Source: an archaeon | Lineage (GTDB): Archaea; Nanobdellota; Nanobdellia; SCGC-AAA011-G17; GW2011-AR17 | Reading direction: 5' to 3' | Assembly (NCBI GenBank): GCA_018692925.1 | Contig: JABHLH010000016.1 | Location: 19,462-83,461, forward strand | DNA length: 64,000 bases | In this document: piece after piece, positions 27,641 through 48,370 of the stretch | How positions within the stretch are numbered: the stretch's first letter is position 1 | Layout: each line of letters begins with the position of its first letter | Notes under the pieces: generated by a model | What the model was told of the DNA's origin: nothing | The model's input: the letters and a program-made list of their open reading frames with translations, nothing else | Database searches by the model: none | Position numbers and translations under genes: made by a program

Positions 27641-28369
27641 ATGTTAAAAGAAAAACAAGATATCAAGAGTCATTACGATTCAGAAGGATTAATCAAGGGA
27701 TATGTTCAAAACAGATTTTCAAAACCTCTAGGCAAATTTTTACATGAAAGAGAAACTTCAATAGTAAACTTATATATTCAAAAAAGCAATGCAGAATCTG
27801 TATTAGATTTAGCTTGTGGCCCTGCAAGATTAACTGTAGATATTGAAACAAAAAATGGAACAGCTTTTGATAATGCAAAAAATATGTTAAGCGTTGCAAA
27901 AAAAAGACTAAAAGGTAAAAAATGGAAATTTGTTCAAGGTGACGCATTCAATTTAAAATTAAAAAATAAATTTGATTTAATTTATTCATTTAGATTCTTC
28001 AGACATTTCAACAAAGAAGACAGAAAATCACTTTTAGCAAATGTACATTCTCACTTAAATGACAATTCTATTTTCATAACAGATATGGCAAATATCAAAT
28101 TCAGAGATAGATCATTAAAACAAAGTAACGAAAGTATTGATGTTGTAGATTACAAAATTGAAAAAAAAGAATTCATTCAAGAATTAGAAGATGCTGGTTT
28201 TGAAATAATTGAAATCGATACTGTAATCAACCATTATAATTTACAAGTTAATGCATCAAGATTATATTACTTAAATTTAGATTCTGTTGCGATGGCTTTA
28301 ATTAGAGAGTTTGAAAGATATCCACCATTTGCAGCTCAAGAATTCGTATTTATAGCTAGAAAAAAATGA
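27641..28369 (+). CDS. Class I SAM-dependent methyltransferase
   Basis: Motif I is VLDLACGPARL, with an acidic post-I motif. It is the paralog of the N-terminal domain of 43061..44476. Confidence 0.7.
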   Translation: MLKEKQDIKSHYDSEGLIKGYVQNRFSKPLGKFLHERETSIVNLYIQKSNAESVLDLACGPARLTVDIETKNGTAFDNAKNMLSVAKKRLKGKKWKFVQGDAFNLKLKNKFDLIYSFRFFRHFNKEDRKSLLANVHSHLNDNSIFITDMANIKFRDRSLKQSNESIDVVDYKIEKKEFIQELEDAGFEIIEIDTVINHYNLQVNASRLYYLNLDSVAMALIREFERYPPFAAQEFVFIARKK

Positions 28370-29082
28370 AAAAAGTCCCTTCAATCAAAGAATTGAATAA
28401 ATTCGCTTGGAAATTCAAAAACAGAAAAACTGAAACTCACCTTAGAATTTTCTCTCCTTATTTTCTTTGGACTTTACTTCACACAAAGATCACTCCAAAT
28501 CAACTTACTATGTTTTGGGTTTTATTAGTAATTATCACATCACCATTTTTCTTAATCTACAATTTTTCAGTTCACATTGTTGCTAGTGCAATTATTTTAC
28601 TTTGTTTACAATTAGACATGGTTGACGGTTCTTTAGCAAGATACAAAAAACAATTCAGTAAGAAAGGAGCTATCATAGATTTCATAGGATCTTGGCTAAT
28701 GGCTATTCTTCCACAAACTTTCTTAGCTATCACATACTTCATACATACAGGAAAAACTTGGATCATTATTGCATTACCTTTCTTCTTAATTGGATTTATC
28801 ATGAAAGAGTTAATTCCATTAAAAGAAATGTTCATTTATCAAAAGAAGATTAAAGATGATAAACCTAAAGACAAAGGAAGATTACACAACATTTATTCTT
28901 TTGCAAGAAAACTAATGCTTATTGATTATTCAATTGAAATGTTATTTATCTCTATACTAATTGGAATTCCTGAATACTACATTTTATTCTATGCATTCTC
29001 TTACAACTTATATTGGATTGCAAAAACTATACATGTATTCATAAAAAAGGAAGATCTTTCTAAAGAAGTATTTTTAACTTAA
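28366..29082 (+). CDS. CDP-alcohol phosphatidyltransferase-like membrane protein
   Basis: DMVDGSLARYKKQFSKKGAIIDFIG partly matches D-G-x2-A-R-x8-G-x3-D. It has 5-6 TM helices. Its start overlaps the upstream methyltransferase gene by 4 nt. Confidence 0.5.
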   Translation: MKKVPSIKELNKFAWKFKNRKTETHLRIFSPYFLWTLLHTKITPNQLTMFWVLLVIITSPFFLIYNFSVHIVASAIILLCLQLDMVDGSLARYKKQFSKKGAIIDFIGSWLMAILPQTFLAITYFIHTGKTWIIIALPFFLIGFIMKELIPLKEMFIYQKKIKDDKPKDKGRLHNIYSFARKLMLIDYSIEMLFISILIGIPEYYILFYAFSYNLYWIAKTIHVFIKKEDLSKEVFLT

Positions 29083-30560
29083 CGTCTAAAGCTCTTAAAA
29101 CTTTTCATATCTTCTTTACTTATTCCTCCAAAGAGAAACAAGAACAACAAGTATACAAAACCATAAACCAAAGCAAAGAGAATCAAGCTATACTTTTCTA
29201 CACTTCCAAAGATCCAAACTAGAGCAAAGAAACTAAGAACTCCTACAATTATAACTTTCAAATATTGTTTTACTAAATCAAAATCTAAAAGTGAAATCCT
29301 AAACTTTCTAAATAAAGGTACAAATAACAAAATATTAAACACTAAAAATGAAAAAGCTGTTGCCAAAGCAGCACCTGTAATCCCATAGCTTTGAATAAAG
29401 ACAATATTCAGCACAACTCCAATACCTGTCGCAATAAAACTAATCACTAACTTCAGTTTAGTCATTGCAAAGCTATTATACAACAAACCTAATACTCCAA
29501 AAAATGTAACAACCATTGTTCCTAACAATAAAATCCTCATAGGCCACAAAGCTCCAATATAATCTACACCAAACAAAAATACAATTAATTCTCCAGTATA
29601 ATAGAACATAAACATAAACAGGGGAAAAGTTAAACTAACAAACCAAGTTAACAATTTCTTATACACTTTTTTAATTTCTTTAAATTTCTTCTCAGCATAC
29701 AATTTACTAACTACAGGAATAAATAAACCTTTAAACAAATTAACAGGTATAACTAACAAAGCTGCCAAAGGTATTGCAACATTATACACTCCAACTAACT
29801 CTTCAGTTAAAAAATAACCAATCATCAAAGTATCAATCCAAGTCATACAAGTAAACAAAGCCCCCATAAACAACAAAGGCCAAGAAAATGTCAATAATTT
29901 TTTTCCAAAAGATTTACCTAAATTTTGATCTTTATATTTTGAAATTAATTTCCATACAATTAACATTCCAACTAAAAAACTAACAAAATAACTCAGGACA
30001 TAAGCCCACATAACTCCAAACAATGAATACCCATAATACAAAAATGCTACAGCCAATAGAACTTTCACTCCTGGCTCAACAATTTGCCTCACAGTAATAT
30101 AATGCTCAATCTTTTTAGTACCTCTAAACACAGCCATAAACAATTCAGTTAAAACCCAGAAAGGCAAGACTAAAGCTAAGATTAACAAGAAATACTTTAA
30201 TGTTCCATTTGAACTAATCAAACTTGACAACTGACTAGAAAATAAAAACAAGAGTACAGCAAATATCAAACTAGAAATTAAGGCAATCTTTAAACCTGAG
30301 AAGATAATATTCTTCATTTCTTTTTTCTGACCATAGAAATATCCAAGATATCTTTCAACACCATGTTCTAAACCTAAAGATGCTACCATCCCTACAATAC
30401 TAAAAACAGCAATACCTAAACTCAAAATACCATAATCTGCTGGACCTAACCATCTAGCAACAATTGTTCTAAATGCAAAATTCAATAATTTCGAGAAGAA
30501 TAGACCTATAAATATAAAGAAGGCTCCTCTTACGATCCAATCCAGCGAACTTTTAGACAT
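29079..30560 (-). CDS. Wzx-like polysaccharide/oligosaccharide flippase (MOP superfamily)
   Basis: 493 aa with ~12-14 TM helices. The N-terminal pattern is typical of polysaccharide biosynthesis proteins. Confidence 0.65.
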   Translation of the reverse strand: MSKSSLDWIVRGAFFIFIGLFFSKLLNFAFRTIVARWLGPADYGILSLGIAVFSIVGMVASLGLEHGVERYLGYFYGQKKEMKNIIFSGLKIALISSLIFAVLLFLFSSQLSSLISSNGTLKYFLLILALVLPFWVLTELFMAVFRGTKKIEHYITVRQIVEPGVKVLLAVAFLYYGYSLFGVMWAYVLSYFVSFLVGMLIVWKLISKYKDQNLGKSFGKKLLTFSWPLLFMGALFTCMTWIDTLMIGYFLTEELVGVYNVAIPLAALLVIPVNLFKGLFIPVVSKLYAEKKFKEIKKVYKKLLTWFVSLTFPLFMFMFYYTGELIVFLFGVDYIGALWPMRILLLGTMVVTFFGVLGLLYNSFAMTKLKLVISFIATGIGVVLNIVFIQSYGITGAALATAFSFLVFNILLFVPLFRKFRISLLDFDLVKQYLKVIIVGVLSFFALVWIFGSVEKYSLILFALVYGFVYLLFLFLFGGISKEDMKSFKSFRR

Positions 30561-30593
30561 ATAAGAAATATAAAAAGACCTATTTAAAAAACT

Positions 30594-31517
30594 TTAGAAT
30601 TCCAATTTTTTACGATATGTCCAATATACAACTAAACCAAATGCATACTTAAACAAGATATTAAACAAAAAGTAATTTACTGACACTGCATAAGGAACAC
30701 CAATCAAACCATACATATAAATTCCTGAGATTTCTTTCAACCCTAAACCTGAAAATGGTATAGGCAACAAAGAGATCATAATGATTAGAGATTGTATCAT
30801 CGCAATATGAAAAATAGAAACTTCTGCTCCAAACATTCTAAATGCAACAAGTCCACCAAAAAATATTCCACTTAATAAAATTGCAGTAATAAAAAAATTC
30901 AAAACTAAAATCTTTTTTCTTCTCTTAAACACATGTTTAAACGAATGTGAAAACCTCTTAAAATACTTTGAATACTTTCTTAAAAAATACTTCTTAATAA
31001 ATCTTCTAACTTTATTTGACCAAGCTCCTAAAAACACACTAACTAAAACTAACAGAGTAGCTAACAAAATCCAAGTATAATCTTGAGATAAATCAAAAAC
31101 AAATAACAAACCTAATACAGCCATTACACCATAAAAAGAAAAAGTAATCAATTTATCAATAAACTGTACAGAAAGAACTTCTCCATATTCAAAATTTTTA
31201 TGTTTCTTCAATAATAATGTTAAACTCAATTCTCCAGTTTTACTTGGAAAAAATAATGCTAAAGAGTTCATCAAAAGAAAATACTTAAACAAACCAAAAT
31301 AAGAAATTCTTCGACGAATAGCCTTAAACAATAATCTTAAATTCAAAGTATAGATCATTTTAGTTCCAACAAAAATAACTACAAATGGGATCAACCAAAA
31401 CAGATTAATATTCTTCAAAACTTCAAAAATGCTATCTACACCAACTTTCCAAAATATTAAAATGAAAATACTAACTAAAATAAAAACATTCAATACTTTC
31501 AACCAAATCTTATTCAT
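30594..31517 (-). CDS. Flippase-like domain membrane protein (UPF0104/LPG-synthase-TM-like)
   Basis: 307 aa, polytopic. The N-terminal KVGVDSIFEVLKNINLFWL pattern is typical of this family. Confidence 0.45.
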   Translation of the reverse strand: MNKIWLKVLNVFILVSIFILIFWKVGVDSIFEVLKNINLFWLIPFVVIFVGTKMIYTLNLRLLFKAIRRRISYFGLFKYFLLMNSLALFFPSKTGELSLTLLLKKHKNFEYGEVLSVQFIDKLITFSFYGVMAVLGLLFVFDLSQDYTWILLATLLVLVSVFLGAWSNKVRRFIKKYFLRKYSKYFKRFSHSFKHVFKRRKKILVLNFFITAILLSGIFFGGLVAFRMFGAEVSIFHIAMIQSLIIMISLLPIPFSGLGLKEISGIYMYGLIGVPYAVSVNYFLFNILFKYAFGLVVYWTYRKKLEF

Positions 31518-31559
31518 ATTATAAAAATTAGAAACTCGGCTTTTAAATCTTATGGAAAA

Positions 31560-33101
31560 TTACTTATTTTCAACTTTAATTTCATCATTATCAAGAACAT
31601 CAATCTCAGAAGTCATTTTTTCCAACCTATAGTAGATATTCTTCAAATCAGGCCTAAACAAAGACTTAGCACTTTGATCCATATAAGGCAATTTATCTAA
31701 AAGAACTTTCATCATTTTATCACTATAATATAATTCTTTCATTACAGCTCTCAAGATATTAAATTTAGTTCTTTTCTTAAACTTAAAGAAAACATTCAAA
31801 GTATCTTTAATATCTAAAACTAAACTCTTTTCTTTTATCCAAGGAGATTTATCTAAAAGATATCTATCATTCCAAGAAGAGTCAACTAAATTCCATTCTT
31901 TCATTTTTTTAGGATGGCTATACTCTCCACTTTCAACTAGCTCATCATACATTGAACCACCTGGATAAGGCCTATAAATACTTGGACCATGTAAATATAA
32001 ATTTGGATTAATTTTATACAATTCTAAAATAAATCTAAAAGTTCTCAACATATCATCTCTATTCTCTCCAGGCATTCCAATAATAAAACTAGTTCTTGGA
32101 ACAATTCCTGCTTCACCACAATCTTTTACAGCTCTCATAACACTTTCTAACTTCAAACCTTTCCTCATTTTCTTCAACATTCTATCAGAACCAGATTCAA
32201 CACCAAAAAGAATAGCTGTACCACCTAACTCTCTCATTCTTTTCAAAACATCAACTGTCAAATAATCATCATTAATATAATCAGCTCTACATTGTGAGTT
32301 CCAAGTAAATTTCAAACCCCTTCTCTCAATCTCGTCTAAAAATCTAAAGAACCTATCTTTCTTCACAAAAAACAATTCATCAATCAAATAAATATCATCA
32401 ACTTCATGCTCATTAATTAACCATTCAATTTCATCTAAAACATGATCAATATCTCTACCTTGCCATTTTCTTTGCATTGCAGAATTAATACAGAAAGTAC
32501 ATGAAAAAGGACATCCATTCCCAGAGAATACAATTCCAGTTTTAACTCTCACACCTTTTCTAAAAGGCAAACTTCTTTCAATAGGATGAAATTTATTTAT
32601 CAATTCATAATTCATTCTTGGTAACTTAGAAAGATCCATCAAACTTCTTTTATCATTAAATATTAACTCATCATTTTCTTTATACCCTAAACCTTTAATT
32701 TCACTTAATTTTTTATCTCCTCTCATTGCATGAATTAATTCTTCACAAAGTTCTTCACCATCTCCAAAACAGATATAATCAATCAACTCATGTTTCAAAG
32801 TTTGAATAGGGAATAAGATTGCATGATAACCACCAAAAATAACTTTAATCTTCGGAAATTTATCTTTAACATATTTAGCTAATTTAAGAGCTTCAGGAAT
32901 TTGTGTACTCATTGCAGAGATTCCAACATACAAAGTTTCTTCAGTAACAAAATTATCAACTGCTTCTAGATCTTTAGAACTGAAAATTAAATTAACATTA
33001 TACTCTTTAGCATCTAAGTAACTTCCAATTGAAAGCAATCCACAATTAAACTCTTCTGTTGACCCACTATGAGATGGATCTATGAATACCACATTTTCCA
33101 T
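31560..33101 (-). CDS. B12-binding (class B) radical SAM enzyme
   Basis: An N-terminal B12-binding domain is followed by a GCPFSCTFC cluster motif. Confidence 0.85.
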   Translation of the reverse strand: MENVVFIDPSHSGSTEEFNCGLLSIGSYLDAKEYNVNLIFSSKDLEAVDNFVTEETLYVGISAMSTQIPEALKLAKYVKDKFPKIKVIFGGYHAILFPIQTLKHELIDYICFGDGEELCEELIHAMRGDKKLSEIKGLGYKENDELIFNDKRSLMDLSKLPRMNYELINKFHPIERSLPFRKGVRVKTGIVFSGNGCPFSCTFCINSAMQRKWQGRDIDHVLDEIEWLINEHEVDDIYLIDELFFVKKDRFFRFLDEIERRGLKFTWNSQCRADYINDDYLTVDVLKRMRELGGTAILFGVESGSDRMLKKMRKGLKLESVMRAVKDCGEAGIVPRTSFIIGMPGENRDDMLRTFRFILELYKINPNLYLHGPSIYRPYPGGSMYDELVESGEYSHPKKMKEWNLVDSSWNDRYLLDKSPWIKEKSLVLDIKDTLNVFFKFKKRTKFNILRAVMKELYYSDKMMKVLLDKLPYMDQSAKSLFRPDLKNIYYRLEKMTSEIDVLDNDEIKVENK

Positions 33102-33189
33102 TTCCCATCTTTATTATGCCAAATTTAAATAATTATCGGTGCATTAATCTACTAAATCTTCAGAAACTTTATAAATCGTACAAAAAGGG

Positions 33190-33591
33190 ATGATAAATAT
33201 GATTGCGGAGGGAAAAGTTCTAGTTATAGACTTAGATGGTGTACTATGTAAAATAAAAAGTTCTGAACAAGAATACTCAGACTTAGAACCCATTCCAGAA
33301 GTAATTGAAAGGATCAAACTTTACAAAAAAGAAGGATTCCATATAATTATCAACACTAGTAGAAACATGCGAACTTACAAAGGTAATCTTGGAAAAATAA
33401 ATGCTAATACTCTAAAAACTATTTTCCAGTGGTTAGATCACCATAATATTCCTTATGATGAAATTCACATTGGTAAACCTTGGTGTGGTAAAGAAGGATT
33501 TTACATTGATGACAAAGCAATCAGACCTTCAGAATTTTTAAACAAGAGTTATGACGAGATAAAAGAAATTTTAGATGGAGAGAAATTATGA
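33190..33591 (+). CDS. HAD-superfamily phosphatase, small capless GmhB/PNK-phosphatase-like
   Basis: Motif I is VIDLDGVLC, motif II is NTSR, and the Lys motif is GKP. Its stop overlaps the start of the next gene (ATGA). Confidence 0.6.
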   Translation: MINMIAEGKVLVIDLDGVLCKIKSSEQEYSDLEPIPEVIERIKLYKKEGFHIIINTSRNMRTYKGNLGKINANTLKTIFQWLDHHNIPYDEIHIGKPWCGKEGFYIDDKAIRPSEFLNKSYDEIKEILDGEKL

Positions 33592-37407: not shown

Positions 37408-37520
37408 ATCTCAAAGTCTAGAATTCAAACATTTAAAAAGATTATGATAGTGGATTGGCCTAAATTTGAACCCAATGTTAATTCATTAAATTTATAAAAT
37501 AAAAATAAAAAAAGAAAAAT

Positions 37521-37859
37521 ATGAAATTTCCAAAATTATGCATATTATCAGGATTTGCTTATGAAGAAGGTAAAAAGATTAATCTCCCTTGGGCAATAGA
37601 CTCTGAAACTACTTTTTTAAGACAATCTGGATTATATGAAAAATTATTAGAAATTGAAAATATTGGAGGAATAGATTCTGATTTTGATTATCGTGGTCCT
37701 GTAAAATTAATCCCTGGAAAAATCGAAGGTAAAAAGCATTATTTTTTAAGAGTTCCTTTAGAAGCATTTCAAGAAGGTTGGGGAGTTCAAATTTCAGAAA
37801 CTTATAGAGAACACCTTATTGAAGAGAACTTAGAAAGTATTACACATAGATTTTCTTAA
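37521..37859 (+). CDS. Hypothetical protein
   Basis: 112-aa ORF. No motif recognised. Confidence 0.35.
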   Translation: MKFPKLCILSGFAYEEGKKINLPWAIDSETTFLRQSGLYEKLLEIENIGGIDSDFDYRGPVKLIPGKIEGKKHYFLRVPLEAFQEGWGVQISETYREHLIEENLESITHRFS

Positions 37860-37897
37860 ACAAAACTCTTATAAAACAAAAGAAAATTACCAAAATT

Positions 37898-38152
37898 ATG
37901 ACAAACACAACTATAGATCAAAAAGTACTATCTGAAGATATAAAAAAAATAAAAACAGATCTTGCTTTGAGTGCACTAGGTGCAACTGTAACAGGAATGA
38001 TTTTAGGACTTGCAGCACATGCACAAGTGAATGATAATACAATATTAGCAATTTCAATGCTAGGAGTTTCTTGTGCACCAGGAGTAGTATCAACTTACCA
38101 ACCACTACAAAGAGTATACAACACTCTAAACAAGTATATATCTGAAGAATAA
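37898..38152 (+). CDS. Hypothetical small membrane protein
   Basis: 84 aa with one hydrophobic segment (ALGATVTGMILGLAA). I chose it over the antisense 37911..38159 ORF because of its co-orientation with neighbours and its less degenerate composition. Confidence 0.3.
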   Translation: MTNTTIDQKVLSEDIKKIKTDLALSALGATVTGMILGLAAHAQVNDNTILAISMLGVSCAPGVVSTYQPLQRVYNTLNKYISEE

Positions 38153-38194
38153 AATACATTAAACTTATTAATGCTCATTTAATTTTCTTTTACA

Positions 38195-39418
38195 ATGAAA
38201 ATAGGAATTGCAATAAGCCTTTATGATAAATTTGACGAACTTGCTATTCTAATTGATATTATCAAAAAAAATTGGAAAGGAGATTACATTATTTCAGTTT
38301 GCAGTAACCATGAAAATCCAGAACCATTCTTAAAAGATTTAGACATTGATATTTTCACAAAAGGTGACGATATAATTGTTACAAAAGATATGCCTTGGAT
38401 GAGAAATAGTATCAACATGAGATCCAGAGTTTCTGATTGTATAAAAAAATCTTGTACTGCTGCAATAAATTCTGGAGCAGATTATGTAATGCACTTACAC
38501 ACAGATGCTTGGCCATTAAAAGAAAAAGAGATTCTTAAAATAATTGAACATATGAAAGAAAACAAAAAAACATTTGCTTTCAGAGGTTTAGGTTTCTCAA
38601 AATACAGACATGATTGCCCAGTTGGACACTTAGATGACATGTTCTTCATTTTCGAATCAAAGACTGCAAAGAAAAACAGATACTTTGATTTTAACACATT
38701 ATCCTTACTACCTCACAAACTTTCAATTCATGGTGTATTATCTTTAATTGTTTTAGGTAGAATAGGTTTAGAAAATGCTTACCATTATGATAACTTAAAA
38801 AATAATTATTTCTGGGACGGGAAAAAACATCCAGGTGACATTGAAAGAGTAAGGCCTTCTATTTATGAGCCAAACTTAGGATTGCTACACATTGACACAC
38901 CTACTTTCCCAAAAAATTATGGTAAAGCTGTTCAAGCAATGTACTTATACGAAAATAAATTAACAAAAGGTAAAACAATTAAAAAATTCCTTGAAAAAAA
39001 TCTAATGGACAAACAAAAGTTAATCAGAGCTTTAGATATTTATGAAAGGAAGTTAGATGATAGTTTAAGATTAAGAGGATTTCCAATTTTAAACTTCGGA
39101 AGATTTGGTAGAACTTTTACAAAGAAAGAAAAATATTTGAATGCGCCTTTCAAGAAAAAATTAAATTACTGGTTTGGTACAATGTCTAGAGAAATTTGGG
39201 ACAGAACAATTAAGAAAAAAATTGGAGTTGATTTAATTCCAGATTATTCTTTCTGGCCTGAAGATTTAGAAGTAATTTTAGCAAAAGCAACATTTGCAGA
39301 AGATTATCCTGATTCCTCTTTATTATGGTTCAAAGACAAGAAAAAGAACAAATTAAGAATAAAATCCTTACCAAAATTCTACAAAAAATTCTATAAATAC
39401 AACTATAAGGGAATGTAA
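38195..39418 (+). CDS. Hypothetical protein, possibly a glycan-modifying enzyme
   Basis: 407 aa and soluble. Conserved-looking His/Asp clusters (HLHTDAWP, HLDDMFF) are present. No family recognised. Confidence 0.4.
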   Translation: MKIGIAISLYDKFDELAILIDIIKKNWKGDYIISVCSNHENPEPFLKDLDIDIFTKGDDIIVTKDMPWMRNSINMRSRVSDCIKKSCTAAINSGADYVMHLHTDAWPLKEKEILKIIEHMKENKKTFAFRGLGFSKYRHDCPVGHLDDMFFIFESKTAKKNRYFDFNTLSLLPHKLSIHGVLSLIVLGRIGLENAYHYDNLKNNYFWDGKKHPGDIERVRPSIYEPNLGLLHIDTPTFPKNYGKAVQAMYLYENKLTKGKTIKKFLEKNLMDKQKLIRALDIYERKLDDSLRLRGFPILNFGRFGRTFTKKEKYLNAPFKKKLNYWFGTMSREIWDRTIKKKIGVDLIPDYSFWPEDLEVILAKATFAEDYPDSSLLWFKDKKKNKLRIKSLPKFYKKFYKYNYKGM

Positions 39419-39458
39419 AACAAAAGATTTAAATACTATAGCCACCTATATAGTCACT

Positions 39459-39680
39459 ATGGCAACAACTACTATTCAAATTAGTCACGAATTACTTACT
39501 AAATTAAAAGAAAGAAAACTTTATGACAAAGAATCTTATGAAGAGGTTATTTGGGATGCACTTGAAGATTCAATGACTTTATCAGAAGAAACTAAAAAAA
39601 GAATCAAACTTGCAGAAGCTGATATAAAAGCTGGAAGAATTTATTCTCTTGAAGAAGTAAAAAAGGAGCTTAATCTCTAA
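39459..39680 (+). CDS. Type II antitoxin, partner of the following RelE-like toxin
   Basis: 73 aa, acidic and helical. It overlaps the toxin gene by 1 nt (TAATG). Confidence 0.55.
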   Translation: MATTTIQISHELLTKLKERKLYDKESYEEVIWDALEDSMTLSEETKKRIKLAEADIKAGRIYSLEEVKKELNL

Positions 39681-39928
39681 TGTTTAACATCTTTTTTACT
39701 AATGAAGCCAAGAAATTTCTTAAAAAACTCAATAAAGAAGACAAAACTAGAATTATCTCCGCTTTAGAAAGATCAAGAGTTAGACCTCATGCTCATGTAA
39801 AAAAATTAATTTCTTCTCCTTACTTTCGACTAAGAATTGGAAAATATAGGGCTATTCTTGATATTAACAATGGTAAATTAACAATAATTGTAATTGAAAT
39901 TGGACATAGAAAAAAGATATATAAATAA
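39680..39928 (+). CDS. RelE/ParE-family type II toxin
   Basis: 82 aa. The C-terminus (YRAILDINNGKLTIIVIEIGHRKKIY) matches the RelE/ParE consensus (YRIIY.I....V.IL.IGHRK..Y). Confidence 0.7.
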   Translation: MFNIFFTNEAKKFLKKLNKEDKTRIISALERSRVRPHAHVKKLISSPYFRLRIGKYRAILDINNGKLTIIVIEIGHRKKIYK

Positions 39929-40018
39929 AATCCCAGGGTAGATTTCACCAAAAATATCTCCTAAATAACATACAACAACTACATAAAACTTAAAAAGCAA
40001 ATAGAATAGAATTCTCTC

Positions 40019-41842
40019 GTGAACGAAATTAAAGAGGCTATAATTCTAGCAGCAGGATCTAGCCGTAGAATGGGATTGCTTTGTGAGGGAAAACATAAAT
40101 CTTTATTGAAGTATAAAGAGAATACTATCTTAGCTAGAATTATCAATCAACTAAAGAAGGCTAATATTGAGAAATTAGTAATTGTTGTTGGATTCGCAAA
40201 GGATAAAATCATTGAAGAAACAAAAAACATTCAAGATATTGAAATTAAAATTGTAGAAAATCCAAGATATTATGAGGATACAAACATATATTCTATGAAA
40301 CTTGCTTTAGACCACATAGAAAACCCATTTATAATTGTTGAAGCAGATATGATCACTGAAGATGCATTAATCCAATATTTAGCTGGTTCTGACTTTGAAG
40401 GAAAATCTACTTGGCTTACCAAAGGAAAATTTAATGATATGCAATATGGTGGGATATTAAGATCTGATGAATTAGGAAACATAAATGATATTAGAATTGT
40501 TCCTGAATATAGAGATGAATATCAAGAGCACACAAAATTAACAGGTTTAATGAGAGTTGGTCCAAATGAAGTTGATTTATTCAAAAAACTTGTAAACATT
40601 TATGCAGAAAAAACTTTCAAACAATATTTTTTAATTCCTTGGATTGAAAACTTAACACATTTACCTTGTATTGAAGGTGATGCAAGTCAATACAAATTTT
40701 CAACTTTCAATTCACCAGAAGATTACTATAAAGCTATTGAACTAGAATTTGATGAAGAACAAGCACAAGAAAAAGAAATAAATTTCATAGAAACTGAAAG
40801 ATTAAAACATATAGAAAACTTTGACGAAGATAGAGTACAAATATTAATCCAAAAAATTGAAAGAGATGGTGCTTGGTTAAAACCTATTTACATTGAAAAA
40901 AATCACAACTTAGTTCTTGATGGACAACACAGATTACAAGCTGCAATAAGAATGGGAATTAAAAAAATCCCTACACAAGGTTTTGATTATGAAGATGTAA
41001 AAGTTTGGACTTTAAGAAAAGAAGAATATGTTGACATTCCAACTGTAATTGCAAGAGCAAATCAAGGAGACATATATCCTTACAAAACAGTAAAACATAA
41101 TTTCCCAAGAGTGATCAGTGAATGCTACATACCTCTAGAAAATCTAAAAGGAAATATTGTAATTGAAGAAAGAAAAGAAAAATCTAAAAGATTAATTATT
41201 TTAGCAGCAGGCCAAGGTTTCAAAATTCATGGTTTAAACAAACTTTTCATAAAAGATCCAAAAAATAAAGAAATTTTAATTGAAAAATATATTAGACTTT
41301 TCAAAGATTATGAAATTACAGTAGTTCTAGGACACAAAGCTCTACATGTAATGCAAGAATACCCTCAACTAAATTATGTTTACAATGATCAGTGGCGAAT
41401 TACTGGAAATAGTTATAGTTTAAGTTTAGCTTTAGATGATAGACCTACAATCGTAACATCATCAGATTTAATTTTCGATGAAGAAATGTTAAATTTAATT
41501 GAATCTTCACCAGACAACTCAGTATTTGTATTTCAATCTGAAAACAAAGGTTACAACACAGTAAGATGCAAATCTGAAAATGGAAAACTAAAAGAAATGT
41601 TCTTTGGAGAACAATATTCAAATGAACCTGAAACAACAGGAATTTACAAAATTTCAAATCCAGATTTACTTAGGGAATGGAAAAAAAGATGTTCAAATAA
41701 TAAAAATGTTTTCGCAGGAATAAATTTACCTTTAGAAAATCTTAAAATTGATATAATTGACATTAAAAATACATTCTTCCATGAAATAAACACTCCATTA
41801 GACTACATTAATTTAATTGAGAAAACAAAAAATGGATCTTAG
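40019..41842 (+). CDS. Nucleotidyltransferase, then ParB/Srx-like domain, then nucleotidyltransferase (fusion protein, GTG start)
   Basis: The N-terminus AIILAAGSSRRMG is a MobA/IspD/LicC-like GT-A nucleotidyltransferase P-loop. The middle domain has DGQHRLQAAIRMG, giving the DGxHR and GxxRxxA motifs of the ParB/sulfiredoxin fold. The C-terminus LIILAAGQGFKIHG is a second nucleotidyltransferase. Confidence 0.7.
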   Translation: MNEIKEAIILAAGSSRRMGLLCEGKHKSLLKYKENTILARIINQLKKANIEKLVIVVGFAKDKIIEETKNIQDIEIKIVENPRYYEDTNIYSMKLALDHIENPFIIVEADMITEDALIQYLAGSDFEGKSTWLTKGKFNDMQYGGILRSDELGNINDIRIVPEYRDEYQEHTKLTGLMRVGPNEVDLFKKLVNIYAEKTFKQYFLIPWIENLTHLPCIEGDASQYKFSTFNSPEDYYKAIELEFDEEQAQEKEINFIETERLKHIENFDEDRVQILIQKIERDGAWLKPIYIEKNHNLVLDGQHRLQAAIRMGIKKIPTQGFDYEDVKVWTLRKEEYVDIPTVIARANQGDIYPYKTVKHNFPRVISECYIPLENLKGNIVIEERKEKSKRLIILAAGQGFKIHGLNKLFIKDPKNKEILIEKYIRLFKDYEITVVLGHKALHVMQEYPQLNYVYNDQWRITGNSYSLSLALDDRPTIVTSSDLIFDEEMLNLIESSPDNSVFVFQSENKGYNTVRCKSENGKLKEMFFGEQYSNEPETTGIYKISNPDLLREWKKRCSNNKNVFAGINLPLENLKIDIIDIKNTFFHEINTPLDYINLIEKTKNGS

Positions 41843-43070
41843 AACAATTACTATTGGAATTCCTATTAACATAGAATCAGATACATTATTACATCTAGAA
41901 TCTAAATTAAAAAATTTTCTTGAAGAAACAACAATAGCATTAGCAACAGAAAATATTAATATAAGAACTTTCAGAATAAATTTAACTCCGGTTACAAATA
42001 AAGATTCAAATTTAAACTCACAAAAAATAATAGGAAAAATAGAAACTTTCTCAAACTTTGCAGAAAAATTAAACATTAGGTGGATTAACATCCCTTATGA
42101 TTTAACAGAGAACCCAAAAGAATTATCTGAACTTGCTTTTACAATATTAAAAAGATATCCTAAAACTTTTTCAAATTTAATTGTTGCAAAAGATAAAAAT
42201 ATTTCTTACAACGCAATCCCAATAGCTAGTAAATTCATAAAAGATGTTTCAAAATTAGACAACTCTGGATACAATAATTTTAGAGTAGGGGTTTCTTGCA
42301 ACATCAAAGCAAATACTCCATTCTTCCCATACACTTACAGTTCAGAGGAATTAGGAATCTCAACAGGGTTAGAGTTACCAAAAGAATTCATAAAGATAAT
42401 CAACTCTTCAGAGAATAGAGATCTAATCTCATTAAGAGAAGAAATAATAACAAAGATTTCTCCTGAGGTAAACAAAATAAACAATATCCTTTCAGTTTTA
42501 GCAAAAAAACATTTCATTAAATACAATGGGATTGATTTTTCCTTAGCTCCTTATCCTGAAAAAGGTAGCAGTGTTGCAGAATTAATTGAGCTTTTAGGTT
42601 TAGAACAACTTGGCAGCAATGGAACATTGTTCTTAACTTCATACTTAACTGACATATTAAAAGAAATACAAAAAAGAAACAACACTCCAACAACAGGCTT
42701 CAATGGTGTAATGTTTTCTTTATTAGAAGATGAACAACTAGGCTTAAGAAACAACAACAAGTTATTTTCAATTGATTCATTAATTTCATATTCAGCAGTT
42801 TGCGGATGTGGTTTAGACATGATTCCTTTACCAGGAGATATTTTCGAAGAAGAGCTTAACTCAATAATCTTAGATGTAGCTGCCTTATCAACAACCTTAG
42901 ACAAACCTTTAGGAGTAAGAGTATTACCAATTCCAACAAAGCAAGAAAATGAATTCACAACCTTTAACATGGATTTTTTATTCAACACAAGGGTCAAAAA
43001 ACCTAAAAACTTAAGTTTATCAAACAGATTATTAACAAATACAAAATTTTCATATTTAAAATGGCAATAG
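41817..43070 (+). CDS. UPF0210 (DUF711) family protein
   Basis: MDLRTITIGIPI matches the UPF0210 N-terminal DIRTITMGISL. C-terminal CGCGLDMIPLP and GVRVLPIP match SVGLDMIAIP and RIIP of the family. The true start may be the Met at 41832. Confidence 0.7.
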   Translation: MRKQKMDLRTITIGIPINIESDTLLHLESKLKNFLEETTIALATENINIRTFRINLTPVTNKDSNLNSQKIIGKIETFSNFAEKLNIRWINIPYDLTENPKELSELAFTILKRYPKTFSNLIVAKDKNISYNAIPIASKFIKDVSKLDNSGYNNFRVGVSCNIKANTPFFPYTYSSEELGISTGLELPKEFIKIINSSENRDLISLREEIITKISPEVNKINNILSVLAKKHFIKYNGIDFSLAPYPEKGSSVAELIELLGLEQLGSNGTLFLTSYLTDILKEIQKRNNTPTTGFNGVMFSLLEDEQLGLRNNNKLFSIDSLISYSAVCGCGLDMIPLPGDIFEEELNSIILDVAALSTTLDKPLGVRVLPIPTKQENEFTTFNMDFLFNTRVKKPKNLSLSNRLLTNTKFSYLKWQ

Positions 43071-44476
43071 ATTTGAAGGAAGTAAAAAACTTTTGGGAAA
43101 AGCGAGCAGAACAACATAGTGACAACCAAGGTATTACTAACTTAGAAGAAAATAATAAATTAAGAAAATTAAAAACAGAGTTAGAAGAAAATAAAGTTGA
43201 TGAATATCTTCCTCAATTACAAAACAAAACAATTCTAGATTTAGCTGGAGGATATGGTAGATGGGCATTTAGATTTACAAAAAAAGCAAAAGAAGTACAT
43301 GTTGTAGACTATTGTTATGATTTAATTGCTTTAGGAAAAAAGAAATCTAAAGAACAAGGAATAAACAACATCAAATATTTTCAAGCATCAGCTCAGGATT
43401 ATGATAGTAAAACTAAATATGATATTATTTTCATCTCTGGTCTTTTAATTTACTTAAACGATGAAGACCTAAAAACTTTAGGAGAAAAGATTAGACAATA
43501 TTCTCATGAAAACACAAAAGTCATTTTAAGAGATGGAACTGGTATCAAAGGAAGATTTGAAATTAACAGAAGATTCTCTGAAGCTTTACAAACTTATTAT
43601 AGCGCAACTTACAGAACTCCAGAACAATACATTTCTTTCTTCAAAAGCATTGGTTTTGAAATTGTAAAACAAGACAATATGTTTGAAGAAGGTTGTGAAT
43701 TAAATAAATTCCCTGAAACAAGATTAAAAATTTACAAATTTAATAAAAAAACTACAAAAAAAGAAAAGAAAAAGCTTTCATTAAAAGAAATCAGAGAAGG
43801 TAAACATATCAAAGAAGGATTATACACAGACATTCTAAGAGTCCCTCATGTTACACTTACATACTTAATTGTTCACGCAATCAAAGACACAAAGATTACT
43901 CCAAACCAAGTAACTTTATTCAGTATGATTTTACTATTAATTGCAACATATTTCTATGCTGGTGGAACTTATGTATATGCTTTAATTGCTTCTTTACTTT
44001 ACTATTTATCTTTCGTTTTCGACACTGTTGATGGAAATTTAGCAAGACAAAAAGAGATGTGTTCACCTCTTGGAGGCTGGTATGATAAAATAGCTGACAG
44101 AATAATGAATCCAATTTTATTCTTTGCAATAGCTTGGGGTATTTACTTAAACAATCCTTCAGTTTATGTTTGGATTTGGACTTTCACAGCTTTTGCTGTA
44201 TTAGAATTCTCTGTAATAGTACAATATAATTTTAGAGTAATGTTTAATTTTGGAATGGACGAAGTAAAAAAGGAAAGAAAGAAAAGAGGATGGCTAAAAG
44301 AATTTATGTTAAACGACTTTTTCTTATGTCACAGTATAATTCTATTTAGTATTTTTGGCATCTTAGAATACTACATGATATTCTTCACACTATATGGAGG
44401 ATTATTTGACATTGCAATGGTTACAGTAATGACATACAAAGCTAAAAAACATCTCAAAAATGAAAACAGACCTTAA
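43061..44476 (+). CDS. Fusion of a class I SAM methyltransferase (N-terminal) to a CDP-alcohol phosphatidyltransferase (C-terminal, polytopic)
   Basis: N-terminal motif I is ILDLAGGYGRW. The C-terminus has a perfect CDP-OH-PT signature, DTVDGNLARQKEMCSPLGGWYDKIAD (D-G-x2-A-R-x8-G-x3-D-x3-D), followed by TM helices. Confidence 0.8.
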   Translation: MAIDLKEVKNFWEKRAEQHSDNQGITNLEENNKLRKLKTELEENKVDEYLPQLQNKTILDLAGGYGRWAFRFTKKAKEVHVVDYCYDLIALGKKKSKEQGINNIKYFQASAQDYDSKTKYDIIFISGLLIYLNDEDLKTLGEKIRQYSHENTKVILRDGTGIKGRFEINRRFSEALQTYYSATYRTPEQYISFFKSIGFEIVKQDNMFEEGCELNKFPETRLKIYKFNKKTTKKEKKKLSLKEIREGKHIKEGLYTDILRVPHVTLTYLIVHAIKDTKITPNQVTLFSMILLLIATYFYAGGTYVYALIASLLYYLSFVFDTVDGNLARQKEMCSPLGGWYDKIADRIMNPILFFAIAWGIYLNNPSVYVWIWTFTAFAVLEFSVIVQYNFRVMFNFGMDEVKKERKKRGWLKEFMLNDFFLCHSIILFSIFGILEYYMIFFTLYGGLFDIAMVTVMTYKAKKHLKNENRP

Positions 44477-48284: not shown

Positions 48285-48370
48285 AAATAGAATCCGATTT
48301 CATCATTTTAAAAGCTTTATGCTACTAAAATAGATCTCTTCCACTACATTTATATAGAAATCTCATTTTT

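What the first reader, a model, noticed from the sequence alone, without database searches (positions are those of the whole stretch)
27641..44476. Same methyltransferase plus CDP-alcohol phosphatidyltransferase module present twice, once split and once fused
Genes 27641..28369 and 28366..29082 are a split, 4-nt-overlapping pair encoding a methyltransferase then a CDP-OH-PT. Gene 43061..44476 encodes the same two activities as one polypeptide with a perfect D-G-x2-A-R-x8-G-x3-D-x3-D motif. A SAM methyltransferase fused to a CDP-alcohol phosphatidyltransferase is not an architecture I know from characterised enzymes. It implies the transferred head group, or the CDP-donor, is methylated in concert with transfer. 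Serial N-methylation of phosphoethanolamine to phosphocholine is one possibility.
Basis: partly seen in the sequence, partly recalled or inferred. Interest (0 to 1): 0.6.

Follow-up and report, generated by a model that had tools for sequence, protein, structure and literature searches.

The report
Methyltransferase fused to CDP-headgroup transferase
In a tiny (DPANN) archaeon, one gene joins the last two steps of a widespread but uncharacterised pathway that appears to build a cytidine-activated, N-methylated serine-like phosphate group and attach it to the cell surface, extending a chemistry only just demonstrated in bacterial flagella.

Summary
43061-44476 encodes a class I SAM methyltransferase (residues 1-232), a Lys-rich linker and a CDP-alcohol phosphotransferase with a perfect motif. 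27641-29082 is a 4-nt-overlapping methyltransferase/CDP-OH-PT pair. The two modules are distant (23% and 30% identity). The split methyltransferase belongs to another subfamily, and the split transferase has Ser in place of the last motif Asp.

The fusion is recent. It occurs in three related Woesearchaeota/Nanoarchaeota assemblies, while 62-68%-identical relatives keep two overlapping genes.

The fusion ends an operon (40019-44476) whose parts recur collinearly in about 25 of the bacterial and archaeal loci examined:
- a LicC/PntC-like cytidylyltransferase;
- a SerK/SbnI-like serine kinase;
- a second nucleotidyltransferase;
- DUF711;
- a phosphoethanolamine-N-methyltransferase-like methyltransferase;
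- usually an Asp-racemase homologue.

The adjacent transferase varies between TagF-like (often itself fused to a PMT-like methyltransferase), LicD and CDP-OH-PT.

The closest known system is C. difficile FtaABCD, in which CDP-threonine is N-methylated and then transferred.

Best reading: a bifunctional CDP-(serine-derived) N-methyltransferase/phosphotransferase. Head group and acceptor are inferred, not shown.

The parts
43061..44476 (+). Fusion protein, 471 aa. Residues 1-232 form a PMT-like class I SAM methyltransferase. Residues about 233-259 are a Lys-rich, A-tract-encoded linker. Residues about 262-467 form a 6-7-helix CDP-alcohol phosphotransferase with the full D1xxD2GxxAR...G...D3xxxD4 motif.
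   Evidence: - Pfam and NCBIfam.
- PDB sequence search: phosphoethanolamine N-methyltransferases on top.
- AF2 model: pLDDT 78, pTM 0.51, linker pLDDT below 50.
- Foldseek: top hit AtPMT2 5wp5; AF2299 (4q7c/4o6n) aligned over 447-449 columns.
- Hydropathy.
- Junction compared with unfused relatives.
41817..43070 (+). DUF711/UPF0210 ('PFL family') protein, function unknown. It overlaps the start of the fusion gene by 10 nt. In other genomes it is fused N-terminally to the same methyltransferase family.
   Evidence: - Pfam PF05167, 2e-70.
- DUF711+MTase fusions: P0002, P0003, P0009, P0011, P0013, P0015.
- Only solved relative: 2ha9. Weak fold resemblance to ribonucleotide reductase/PFL barrels.
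- Invariant CGCGLDM motif.
40019..41842 (+). Three-domain protein, 607 aa.
- NT1 (residues 6-240): LicC/PntC-like cytidylyltransferase.
- Residues 250-376: SerK/SbnI-like serine-kinase mini-domain.
- NT2 (residues 391-604): divergent MobA-like nucleotidyltransferase lacking the canonical Arg.
   Evidence: - General.
- Domain boundaries from the separate genes in L007 and L001.
- SerK-like profile hits only serine kinases in the PDB: 5x0b 3.7e-10, plus SbnI.
- NT1 profile: LicC 1jyk 4.1e-18, PntC fusion 6pd1 8.5e-14.
- Motifs.
44460..45512 (+). 350-aa soluble protein of unknown function (weak D-glucuronyl C5-epimerase C-terminal-like match). It overlaps the fusion gene's end and is conserved downstream of the transferase in archaeal relatives.
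   Evidence: Orthologue in L039 at 55% identity. No TM segments.
38195..39418 (+). 407-aa conserved protein of unknown function upstream of the operon.
   Evidence: No Pfam or NCBIfam hit. 80-81% identical in L008 and L009.
45490..48284 (-). GT4 glycosyltransferase (45490-46599) and PMT_2 GT-C glycosyltransferase (46596-48284). They are syntenic partners of the transferase in relatives.
   Evidence: Pfam. Same order on the P0170 contig and in L039.
27641..28369 (+). Split-pair methyltransferase: a generic class I SAM MTase, not PMT-like.
   Evidence: Pfam. Best PDB hits are generic: 1wzn, 3dtn. 23% identical to the fusion's MTase. 54% orthologue adjacent to a CDP-OH-PT in L036.
28366..29082 (+). 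Split-pair CDP-alcohol phosphotransferase, 238 aa, about 6 TM. Its motif ends in Ser instead of the fourth Asp.
   Evidence: Pfam 36 bits. Motif alignment. Homologues P0166, P0167 and P0168. Hydropathy.
31560..33101 (-). B12-binding radical SAM enzyme. Its orthologue lies next to the split-type pair in L036. Two paralogues lie at 26247-27548 (-) and 35950-37407 (-).
   Evidence: Pfam. 58% identity to the L036 radical SAM protein.
33190..35972 (+). HAD 'capsule biosynthesis phosphatase' (33190-33591), followed by a 794-aa NT / APH-type kinase / NT protein (33588-35972). This is a likely separate activated-donor supply line near the split pair.
   Evidence: TIGR01689 173 bits, above the cutoff of 162. 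Pfam. C-terminal NT matches 4evw, a nucleoside-diphosphate-sugar pyrophosphorylase, at 2.4e-23.
29079..31517 (-). Wzx-type flippase (29079-30560) and LPG_synthase_TM 'flippase-like' membrane protein (30594-31517).
   Evidence: Pfam and NCBIfam. An LPG_synthase_TM homologue also sits beside the CDP-OH-PT of the phosphonate locus L037.

Best explanation
43061-44476 encodes a bifunctional enzyme that carries out the last two steps of a 'CDP-activated amino-acid head group' pathway. The pathway is encoded by the translationally coupled operon 40019-44476(-45512).

Proposed order of steps:
1. The SerK/SbnI-like domain phosphorylates L-serine to O-phosphoserine.
2. The LicC/PntC-like NT1 domain condenses it with CTP to give a CDP-linked head group (CDP-serine).
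3. NT2 and DUF711 carry out an as yet unknown, separable modification.
4. The PMT-like methyltransferase domain N-methylates the amine while it sits on the phosphate/CDP handle.
5. The fused membrane CDP-alcohol phosphotransferase transfers the phospho-head group from CDP-X to a hydroxyl at the cytoplasmic membrane face and releases CMP. The acceptor is a lipid-linked surface glycan or a membrane lipid.

Fusing steps 4 and 5 hands the methylated donor directly to the transferase.

What is shown:
- domain identities;
- gene order and gene fusions;
- conservation of the cassette;
- interchangeability of three unrelated CDP-X transferase families.

What is inferred:
- the substrate (a serine-derived amine);
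- the order of steps;
- N- rather than O-methylation;
- the acceptor.

The split pair 27641-29082 is a second, only distantly related methyltransferase + CDP-OH-PT unit. It belongs with B12-radical SAM enzymes and another donor-supply line, and probably installs a different head group.
For: 1. Domain assignments.
- MTase family profile against the PDB: the top four hits are all phosphoethanolamine N-methyltransferase MT1 domains (5wp5 1.9e-26, 5wp4, 4krg 2.3e-19 over profile 4-202, 6wlf). Generic methyltransferases start at 1e-14 (single sequence; Foldseek).
- SerK-like profile: its only PDB hits are free serine kinase and SbnI O-phosphoserine synthase. They include the C-terminal YPxKTxKH motif.
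- NT1 profile: LicC 4e-18 and the PntC fusion 6pd1 8.5e-14, against 1e-10 or weaker for sugar-1-P enzymes.

2. Conserved cassette. NT1 / SerK-like / NT2 / DUF711 / MTase (/ Asp-racemase homologue) is collinear in about 25 of the 28 genome loci. Hosts range from Woesearchaeota to Pantoea, Agrobacterium, Xanthomonas, Pseudomonas, Roseovarius and Acidobacteriota.

3. Adjacent CDP-X transferase in 19 of 28 loci, from three unrelated families: TagF-like in 14, CDP-OH-PT in 4, LicD in 1. LicD also occurs in L001-L005.

4. Rosetta-stone fusions of this MTase family.
- With DUF711.
- With NTP-transferase, with Asp/Glu racemase, and with a PLP decarboxylase.
- With CDP-OH-PT (this gene).
- In addition, a second PMT-like MTase domain is fused to TagF-like transferases.

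5. Unfused ancestors. In relatives with a 65-68%-identical transferase, the MTase and CDP-OH-PT are overlapping neighbour genes with the same downstream genes.

6. Experimental precedent. FtaB makes CDP-threonine, FtaC N-methylates the CDP donor, and FtaD (TagF-like) transfers it to GlcNAc on flagellin (PMC10714395; bioRxiv 10.64898/2026.02.12.704994). In Pseudomonas mangrovi the cassette lies between flgK/flgL-type genes and a giant glycosyltransferase.

7. A minimal version without NT2 or DUF711 exists in L002-L005: NT1+SerK-like, MTase, racemase, LicD. This is the Fta logic.
Against: - No biochemical data exist for any member.
- The kinase-like domain is a truncated SerK (about 130 aa, middle domain missing), so its substrate could differ.
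- The roles of DUF711 and NT2 are unexplained, so the true head group may be more elaborate than N-methylserine.
- PMT similarity does not prove N-methylation. A phosphonate O-methyltransferase (DhpI) is also a close fold match.
- The nearest curated CDP-OH-PT families (archaetidylinositol-phosphate, PIP and DIPP synthases) mostly use a lipid CDP-donor. Donor polarity is therefore inferred from context only.
- Homology to FtaA-D could not be tested because no sequences were available.
- Inter-domain geometry in the AF2 model is unreliable (pTM 0.51, linker pLDDT below 50).
Confidence: 0.55

Rival explanations
1. De novo phosphocholine / N-methyl-phosphoethanolamine decoration. Phosphoserine or CDP-serine is decarboxylated, with DUF711 as the unknown decarboxylase. 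The PMT-like domain methylates the resulting ethanolamine head group one to three times. The CDP-OH-PT then acts like a choline/ethanolamine phosphotransferase.
For: - The MTase is most similar to phosphoethanolamine N-methyltransferases.
- NT1 is most similar to CTP:phosphocholine cytidylyltransferase LicC.
- LicD, the classical CDP-choline transferase, replaces the CDP-OH-PT in some loci.
- Sister members of the MTase family are fused to a PLP Orn/DAP/Arg-type decarboxylase (P0087, P0131).
- The window lacks the racemase.
Against: - No recognisable decarboxylase is present in the operon or in the conserved cassette.
- DUF711 has no known cofactor or activity.
- Most bacterial cassettes keep a racemase with both catalytic Cys residues. 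A racemase is pointless if the stereocentre is destroyed.
- The MT1-type PMT domains it resembles perform only the first methylation (established knowledge of plant and nematode PMTs).
Confidence: 0.2
2. Membrane-lipid head-group synthase. The CDP-OH-PT domain uses CDP-archaeol as donor and a soluble amino-alcohol as acceptor, like archaetidylserine or archaetidylinositol-phosphate synthases. The tethered methyltransferase then methylates the lipid head group at the membrane surface.
For: - The best curated family matches are archaetidylinositol-phosphate, PIP and DIPP synthases.
- The AF2299 fold matches.
- DPANN archaea must remodel acquired lipids (general knowledge).
- The 2026 Fta preprint notes an FtaB homologue near lipid genes in Methanobrevibacter.
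Against: - All scores are far below the equivalog cutoffs (60 against 180 bits).
- The operon supplies its own cytidylyltransferases for a small soluble substrate.
- In other lineages the same cassette pairs with TagF-like or LicD enzymes, which use soluble CDP-X donors on glycans.
- The neighbours are glycosyltransferases, GT-C enzymes and flippases.
- The same CDP-OH-PT clade sits in a PepM/Ppd/NT phosphonate locus.
Confidence: 0.15
3. The fusion is an evolutionary accident with no functional coupling. Two neighbouring but unrelated genes merged when the ATGA overlap was lost in an A-rich tract, and the two halves work in different pathways.
For: - The fusion is restricted to three closely related genomes.
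- The linker is low-complexity and is encoded by A-runs.
- The linker has low model confidence.
Against: - The unfused pair is conserved and translationally coupled in relatives.
- All family-invariant residues of both domains are retained.
- Independent MTase-transferase fusions with a non-homologous (TagF-like) transferase exist in bacteria.
Confidence: 0.05

Closest known systems
C. difficile flagellin Type A glycan pathway FtaABCD (CD0241-CD0244) and P. aeruginosa PA1088-PA1091
   Same: - The logic is the same: make a phospho-amino acid, activate it with CTP using a LicC-like cytidylyltransferase, N-methylate the CDP-amino acid with a class I SAM MTase, then transfer the phospho-amino acid to a sugar hydroxyl and release CMP.
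- Fusions of the transferase to neighbouring activities also occur there (PA1091 = glycosyltransferase + phosphotransferase).
- The bacterial version of the cassette sits in a flagellar locus in P. mangrovi.
- Sources: PMC10714395; bioRxiv 10.64898/2026.02.12.704994; bioRxiv 10.1101/2024.09.23.614423.
   Different: - The phospho-amino-acid maker here is a SerK/SbnI-like kinase, not a HAD/ThrH-like FtaA.
- The amino acid is probably serine, not threonine.
- There are extra conserved genes: NT2, DUF711 and a racemase.
- The transferase here is a classical-motif membrane CDP-alcohol phosphotransferase. [quoted passage not shown]
- The host is an archaeon without flagellin.
- Sequence homology to FtaA-D was not tested.
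Bifunctional IPCT/DIPPS (CTP:inositol-1-phosphate cytidylyltransferase fused to di-myo-inositol-phosphate-phosphate synthase) and AF2299
   Same: - A soluble enzyme that makes or modifies the CDP-alcohol donor is fused N-terminally to a 6-TM CDP-OH-PT that consumes it. The donor is soluble.
- NCBIfam NF041135 matches the C-terminal half at 7.6e-13.
- The AF2299 fold matches over about 448 columns.
   Different: The N-terminal partner here is a methyltransferase, not a cytidylyltransferase. The score is far below the family cutoff (48 against 580 bits). The substrate is not inositol phosphate.
Phosphoethanolamine N-methyltransferases (plant PEAMT/PMT, nematode PMT1, Plasmodium PMT)
   Same: They are the best solved relatives of the fusion's MTase family, including the N-terminal FW lid motif and the C-terminal YR motif. 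They methylate a primary amine two carbons from a phosphate ester.
   Different: About 20% identity. The phosphobase-binding and catalytic residues could not be checked. The context (serine kinase, racemase, CDP handle) suggests a different substrate.
Lic-1 phosphocholine decoration (LicA/LicB/LicC/LicD) and the Kennedy-pathway choline/ethanolamine phosphotransferases
   Same: A kinase, a LicC-type cytidylyltransferase and a CDP-X phosphotransferase. LicD itself is the partner in some cassette loci. CPT/EPT enzymes are CDP-OH-PT family members that use soluble CDP-X donors.
   Different: There is no choline transporter or choline kinase. The head group is built de novo and methylated within the pathway. 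The acceptor is unknown.
Nucleotide-activated phosphonate tailoring (PntC, CMP-AEP)
   Same: NT1 is second-closest to the PntC fusion 6pd1. A member of the same small CDP-OH-PT clade (P0168) lies beside PepM, Ppd and an NT in L037.
   Different: The window has no PEP mutase or phosphonopyruvate decarboxylase.

Membership tests
CDP-alcohol phosphatidyltransferase (PF01066, CDP-AP class I) | Pfam model above the gathering score | tested here: met
   Fusion 51.1 bits and split protein 36.2 bits, against a cutoff of 22.
CDP-alcohol phosphatidyltransferase (PF01066, CDP-AP class I) | Signature D1xxD2G1xxAR...G2xxxD3xxxD4 on TM2-TM3 | tested here: met
   The fusion has DTVDGNLARQKEMCSPLGGWYDKIAD, with all eight positions present. 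The split protein does NOT meet D4 (DMVDGSLARYKKQFSKKGAIIDFIGS). In this clade D4 is Asp in 31 of 41 members and another residue in 10 of 41.
CDP-alcohol phosphatidyltransferase (PF01066, CDP-AP class I) | Polytopic membrane domain of about 6 TM helices | tested here: met
   Hydropathy segments from residue 284 onward. AF2 helices between residues 262 and 467. AF2299 fold match.
CDP-alcohol phosphatidyltransferase (PF01066, CDP-AP class I) | CMP-releasing transfer from a CDP-alcohol to an acceptor hydroxyl | not testable with these tools
   Requires an enzyme assay.
Archaetidylinositol-phosphate / PIP / DIPP synthases (NCBIfam equivalogs) | Score above the curated equivalog cutoff | tested here: not met
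   NF040950: 60 against 180 bits. NF045883: 44.5 against 170. NF041135: 48 against 580.
Class I SAM-dependent methyltransferase | Rossmann-like fold with motif I (xLDLGxGxG) and an acidic residue after strand 2; Pfam above cutoff | tested here: met
   Fusion: ILDLAGGYGRW, VHVVDY, Methyltransf_25 at 47 bits (cutoff 27). Split: VLDLACGPARL, 59 bits. The AF2 model has a seven-strand alpha/beta core.
Phosphoethanolamine N-methyltransferase (PMT/PEAMT) | Closest solved relatives are PMTs, clearly separated from generic methyltransferases | tested here: met
   For the fusion's family, 1.9e-26 to 2.7e-15 against 9e-15 and weaker. This is not met by the split MTase.
Phosphoethanolamine N-methyltransferase (PMT/PEAMT) | Catalytic Tyr/His dyad and the Tyr/Arg/Lys phosphate-binding residues | tested here: inconclusive
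   The family has invariant R157, Y180, Y184 and R185, and a YR motif aligns with HYR of 4krg. No residue-level structural superposition was possible.
Phosphoethanolamine N-methyltransferase (PMT/PEAMT) | Methylates phosphoethanolamine | not testable with these tools
   Requires an enzyme assay.
Fta-type CDP-amino-acid post-glycosylation modification pathway | LicC-like cytidylyltransferase, N-methyltransferase and CDP-X phosphotransferase encoded together with a phospho-amino-acid-forming enzyme | tested here: met
   Operon 40019-44476. This is functional analogy only.
Fta-type CDP-amino-acid post-glycosylation modification pathway | Sequence homology to FtaA, FtaB, FtaC and FtaD | not tested
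   No Fta or PA1088-1091 sequences were available in the tools. The transferase here is certainly not TagF-like, and the kinase is not HAD-like.
Free serine kinase (SerK) / SbnI | ParB/Srx-like N-domain with DGxHR, plus the C-terminal YxPKTxRH segment | tested here: met
   The profile's only PDB hits are SerK (3.7e-10, two stretches: 16-119 and 204-241) and SbnI. LVLDGQHR and YPYKTVKH are invariant.
Free serine kinase (SerK) / SbnI | Full-length architecture (about 240 aa, including the middle domain) and a score above the equivalog cutoff | tested here: not met
   The domain is only about 130 aa. NF053625 scores 32 bits against a cutoff of 380.

The most novel reading that the evidence does not exclude
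The NT1 / SerK-like / NT2 / DUF711 / PMT-like MTase (/ racemase) cassette is a widespread, undescribed pathway. It makes a new CDP-activated head group: CDP-N-methyl-L/D-serine or a DUF711-modified derivative. It occurs from DPANN archaea to Pantoea, Agrobacterium, Xanthomonas and Pseudomonas flagellar islands. The head group is installed by any of three unrelated transferase families. This would give DUF711/UPF0210 its first function. It would also show that classical-motif CDP-alcohol phosphotransferases can decorate archaeal surface glycans or lipids with amino-acid phosphates.
Probability: 0.35. Interest if true: 0.75.

Novelty: new variant of a known kind. Interest (0 to 1): 0.62.

Why it matters
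CDP-linked amino acids as donors for surface modification were demonstrated only in 2026, in one Clostridioides flagellin pathway. This locus suggests the principle is far broader in three respects.
- It reaches archaea.
- It uses classical membrane CDP-alcohol phosphotransferases.
- It is embedded in a conserved cassette present in many culturable bacteria, where it can be tested genetically.

It also offers the first functional handle on DUF711/UPF0210, a structurally solved family with no known role. It predicts new surface epitopes (phospho-N-methyl-serine-like groups) on DPANN cells, flagellins or O-antigens. Finally, it gives a natural example of methylation-then-transfer channelling in one polypeptide.

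Tried and rejected
- E. coli complete genomes, with the Cedecea cassette DNA in distant mode: no match. No serotyped O-antigen could therefore be linked.
- PLSDB plasmids with DUF711: only Firmicute-type 'PFL family'/UPF0210 proteins at 23-26% identity, which is uninformative.
- IMG/VR viral contigs with the MTase alignment: no relative. The phage-like look of L002-L005 is therefore unconfirmed.
- Literature on DUF711/UPF0210: only fold classification and proteomics lists. Nothing was found on MTase+CDP-OH-PT fusions or on CDP-serine in vivo.
- Phosphonate hypothesis for the window: no PEP mutase or phosphonopyruvate decarboxylase. Rejected for this window, although a related CDP-OH-PT sits in such a locus (L037).
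- Search of the window for a racemase, LicD or TagF-like gene: none.
- The 504-aa neighbour of the MTase-decarboxylase fusion in L041 was checked as a possible CDP-OH-PT. It is a flippase-like membrane protein.
- The DUF711 model is of moderate quality (pLDDT 66). It recovered only 2ha9 and weak ribonucleotide-reductase/PFL matches, with no functional clue.
- No tRNA or Rfam element in the window.

Full report
**Observation**

The window has about 28% G+C and is archaeal. It encodes CDC48, family B DNA polymerase and HerA. Its closest public relatives are MAGs labelled Woesearchaeota and Nanoarchaeota.

- ORF 27641-28369 (+) is a class I SAM methyltransferase.
- ORF 28366-29082 (+) is a CDP-alcohol phosphotransferase. 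The two genes overlap by ATGA.
- ORF 43061-44476 (+) is a single 471-aa protein. It has a methyltransferase domain (about residues 1-232), a Lys-rich linker, and a membrane domain of 6-7 helices. The membrane domain carries D321xxD324GxxAR-x8-G338xxxD342xxxD346.

**Are the two modules the same?**

Only loosely.

- The methyltransferases share 23% identity, and the transferases share 30% over 202 residues.
- The fusion's methyltransferase finds phosphoethanolamine N-methyltransferases as its best solved relatives. The split one finds only generic enzymes.
- The split transferase ends its motif in Ser instead of the fourth Asp, as do its orthologues.
- In this clade of small (about 235 aa) transferases, that position is Asp in 31 of 41 members and G/S/T/H/C/N in the rest.

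The split pair has its own conserved context. In L036, a 54%-identical methyltransferase and a 61%-identical transferase are adjacent and are followed by the orthologue of the B12-radical SAM gene 31560-33101. A more distant member of the clade (P0168) lies in an archaeal locus with PEP mutase, phosphonopyruvate decarboxylase and a nucleotidyltransferase. That locus also has LPG_synthase_TM and PMT_2 genes like those of the window.

**How rare is the fusion?**

- Word-indexed searches with the whole protein and with its C-terminal half recovered relatives down to about 42% identity. Apart from P0001, which is the L009 gene, none combines the two domains.
- An exhaustive HMMER scan of 1.84 billion cluster representatives listed 150 hits of at least 83 bits. 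Each covered only residues 1-230 or only 240-470. A protein with even weak versions of both domains would have ranked high.
- The three genomes with the fusion share 87-89% nucleotide identity over 38161-50109.
- In L039 (68% transferase identity), the methyltransferase ends '...RLRIYKFRKIK*' and overlaps the transferase start 'MSLRETFNDIKEGKH' by ATGA. On the P0170 contig the two genes overlap by 32 nt.
- In both relatives, the following genes (a 341-351-aa protein and GT4, plus PMT_2 on the P0170 contig) match the window's order.
- In the window, the overlap is replaced by an in-frame A-rich stretch that encodes KKTTKKEKKKL.

The fusion is thus a recent merger of a conserved, translationally coupled gene pair.

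**The operon around it**

The gene upstream (41817-43070) is DUF711/UPF0210. The one before it (40019-41842) has three domains.

The closest homologues of the fusion's methyltransferase are either free-standing or fused to DUF711.

The three domains of the 607-aa protein are separate genes in L007 and two genes in L001.

Family profiles sharpen the assignments:
- NT1 is closest to LicC (CTP:phosphocholine cytidylyltransferase, 4e-18) and then to the PntC phosphonate cytidylyltransferase fusion.
- The 130-aa middle domain hits only free serine kinase and SbnI O-phosphoserine synthase. Both its DGxHR motif and a C-terminal YPxKTxKH motif are shared.
- NT2 is a divergent MobA-like paralogue that lacks the canonical Arg.
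- The methyltransferase profile puts four phosphoethanolamine N-methyltransferase MT1 domains on top. They lie one to twelve orders of magnitude above generic methyltransferases, with the weakest, 6wlf, only just ahead. Foldseek with the AF2 model agrees.

**A conserved cassette**

A scan of one genome per species with the methyltransferase alignment gave 28 loci. In about 25 of them the order NT1 / SerK-like / NT2 / DUF711 / methyltransferase is collinear. In most of the bacterial loci it is followed by a homologue of aspartate racemase (1jfl, 1e-41) that retains both catalytic cysteines.

Hosts include Pantoea, Cedecea, Yersinia, Agrobacterium, Xanthomonas, Pseudomonas mangrovi, Roseovarius, Rheinheimera, Hyphomicrobium, Acidobacteriota, Thermotogae and Myxococcota. 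Nothing else in the flanks is widely conserved.

Next to the cassette there is usually a phosphotransferase that uses CDP-activated donors, but of three unrelated kinds:
- TagF-like in 14 loci;
- classical CDP-OH-PT in 4 loci (the two archaeal MAGs, and two Myxococcota-type loci, one of which, L012, has four paralogues);
- LicD in L033, in the metagenomic L001 and in L002-L005.

Several TagF-like proteins carry their own methyltransferase domain at the N- or C-terminus. In the one tested (Pseudomonas mangrovi, L030), that domain is again PMT-like (5wp5, 1.7e-13).

Further members of the methyltransferase family are fused to a nucleotidyltransferase, to an Asp/Glu racemase, or to a PLP Orn/DAP/Arg-type decarboxylase.

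L002-L005 carry a reduced set without NT2 or DUF711, so those two appear to form a separable sub-step.

In Pseudomonas mangrovi the cassette lies directly after flgJ, flgK and a flagellin-N-domain gene, and before a 1681-aa multi-glycosyltransferase.

**Known precedent**

C. difficile flagellin carries GlcNAc-phosphate-N-methyl-L-threonine. The revised model (PMC10714395) and a 2026 preprint (10.64898/2026.02.12.704994) establish the following roles:
- FtaB is a LicC-like cytidylyltransferase inferred to make CDP-threonine. CDP-N-methylthreonine is absent in the ftaB mutant, but the protein could not be purified.
- FtaD, a TagF-like enzyme 'lacking the classical CDP-AP motif', transfers phospho-N-methylthreonine to the sugar.

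P. aeruginosa makes the N,N-dimethyl form, and there the transferase is fused to the glycosyltransferase (10.1101/2024.09.23.614423).

The cassette found here follows the same logic with different parts. It has a SerK/SbnI-type kinase instead of the HAD-type FtaA. It has a PMT-like methyltransferase. It adds NT2, DUF711 and a racemase. In the archaeon, the transferase is a classical membrane CDP-alcohol phosphotransferase.

**Mechanism proposed**

1. Serine is phosphorylated.
2. NT1 cytidylylates it.
3. NT2 and DUF711 optionally modify it (unknown step).
4. The PMT-like domain N-methylates it.
5. The fused transferase moves the phospho-head group to an acceptor hydroxyl at the inner face of the membrane and releases CMP.

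Domain identities, gene order, fusions and partner swapping are shown. The substrate, the step order, the site of methylation and the acceptor are inferred.

The neighbours are GT4 and GT-C glycosyltransferases, flippases and a 1051-aa Ig-repeat surface protein. They favour a surface glycan or glycolipid as the target.

The AF2 model gives confident domains but an unreliable inter-domain arrangement: pLDDT 78, pTM 0.51, linker below 50.

**Rivals**

- A decarboxylated head group (N-methylethanolamine or choline phosphate) remains possible. The PMT, LicC and LicD affinities and the MTase-decarboxylase fusions elsewhere support it. The conserved racemase and the absence of any recognisable decarboxylase argue against it.
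- A lipid head-group synthase that uses CDP-archaeol is less likely, given the operon's own cytidylyltransferases and the TagF/LicD substitutions in other lineages.
- Accidental fusion is unlikely, given the conserved coupling and the independent, convergent MTase-transferase fusions.

**Verdict**

The finding is real and more interesting in its context than in itself. It is a lineage-specific fusion that marks the end of a broadly distributed, uncharacterised CDP-head-group pathway.

It is a new variant of a kind of system that became known only recently. It is not categorically new, and the claim of two copies of one module should be dropped.

Noticed in passing
L013-L034 (for example L017 6880-11441, L030 6816-11451): A collinear six-gene cassette is conserved across many cultured bacteria, with no literature found on it. 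Its order is NT1, SerK-like, NT2, DUF711, PMT-like MTase, Asp-racemase homologue. In Pseudomonas mangrovi it lies in the flagellar region, after flgJ/flgK/flagellin-N genes.
   Followed up: partly
window 43736-43790: The fusion linker is encoded by A-runs (AATAAAAAAACTACAAAAAAAGAAAAGAAAAAG). Both alternative frames hit stops within a few codons. Slippage here could yield a methyltransferase-only product.
   Followed up: no
window 26247-27548 (-), 31560-33101 (-), 35950-37407 (-): Three paralogous B12-binding radical SAM enzymes surround the split pair. Similar enzymes recur near related modules in L001, L036, L040 and L041. They may C-methylate a cytidylylated head group (Fom3-like idea, untested).
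   Followed up: partly
window 33190-35972: A TIGR01689 'capsule biosynthesis phosphatase' is followed by a 794-aa NT / APH-kinase / NT protein. This NT-kinase-NT layout parallels the 607-aa NT1 / SerK-like / NT2 protein but uses a different kinase fold.
   Followed up: partly
window 38161-50109 compared with L008 and L009: This segment is 84-89% identical to two other MAGs. The region upstream of it, which holds the split pair and the radical SAM genes, is replaced by different genes in those MAGs. The surface-glycan island is therefore mosaic.
   Followed up: partly
window 41817-43070 (residues 329-335): The DUF711 subfamily has an invariant CGCGLDM motif with two cysteines. It lies in a region that AF2 models poorly. 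The fold is distantly like ribonucleotide reductase/PFL barrels, which bind nucleoside diphosphates.
   Followed up: partly
L037 2998-8768: An archaeal MAG locus combines PEP mutase, a split phosphonopyruvate decarboxylase, a nucleotidyltransferase and a CDP-OH-PT of the same clade (lacking D4). It also has LPG_synthase_TM, PMT_2 and GT4 genes. A CDP-OH-PT may therefore install phosphonate head groups.
   Followed up: partly
L002-L005 (for example L002 7985-17464): These contigs are full of very small ORFs and carry a reduced cassette. It comprises NT1+SerK-like, two MTases, a racemase, two LicD genes, a 233-aa CDP-OH-PT-like protein with His at D4, and a sulfotransferase. The contigs look phage-like, but no IMG/VR relative was found.
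   Followed up: partly
P0087 / P0131 (L040 276-2408, L041 6127-8214): A PMT-like methyltransferase is fused to a PLP Orn/DAP/Arg-type decarboxylase. A second MTase and a SPASM radical SAM gene follow, within a PMT_2/GT2/flippase glycan locus.
   Followed up: partly
L012 3477-14471: A Myxococcota-type locus surrounds the cassette with four CDP-OH-PT paralogues. Two of them have N-terminal extensions of about 220 aa with no Pfam match. The locus also has a Ser/Thr-kinase-like gene and a class II aminoacyl-tRNA-synthetase-like gene.
   Followed up: partly
window 55043-58198 (-): A 1051-aa protein with repeated Ig-like/PKD domains is a likely surface protein and a possible glycosylation target.
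   Followed up: no
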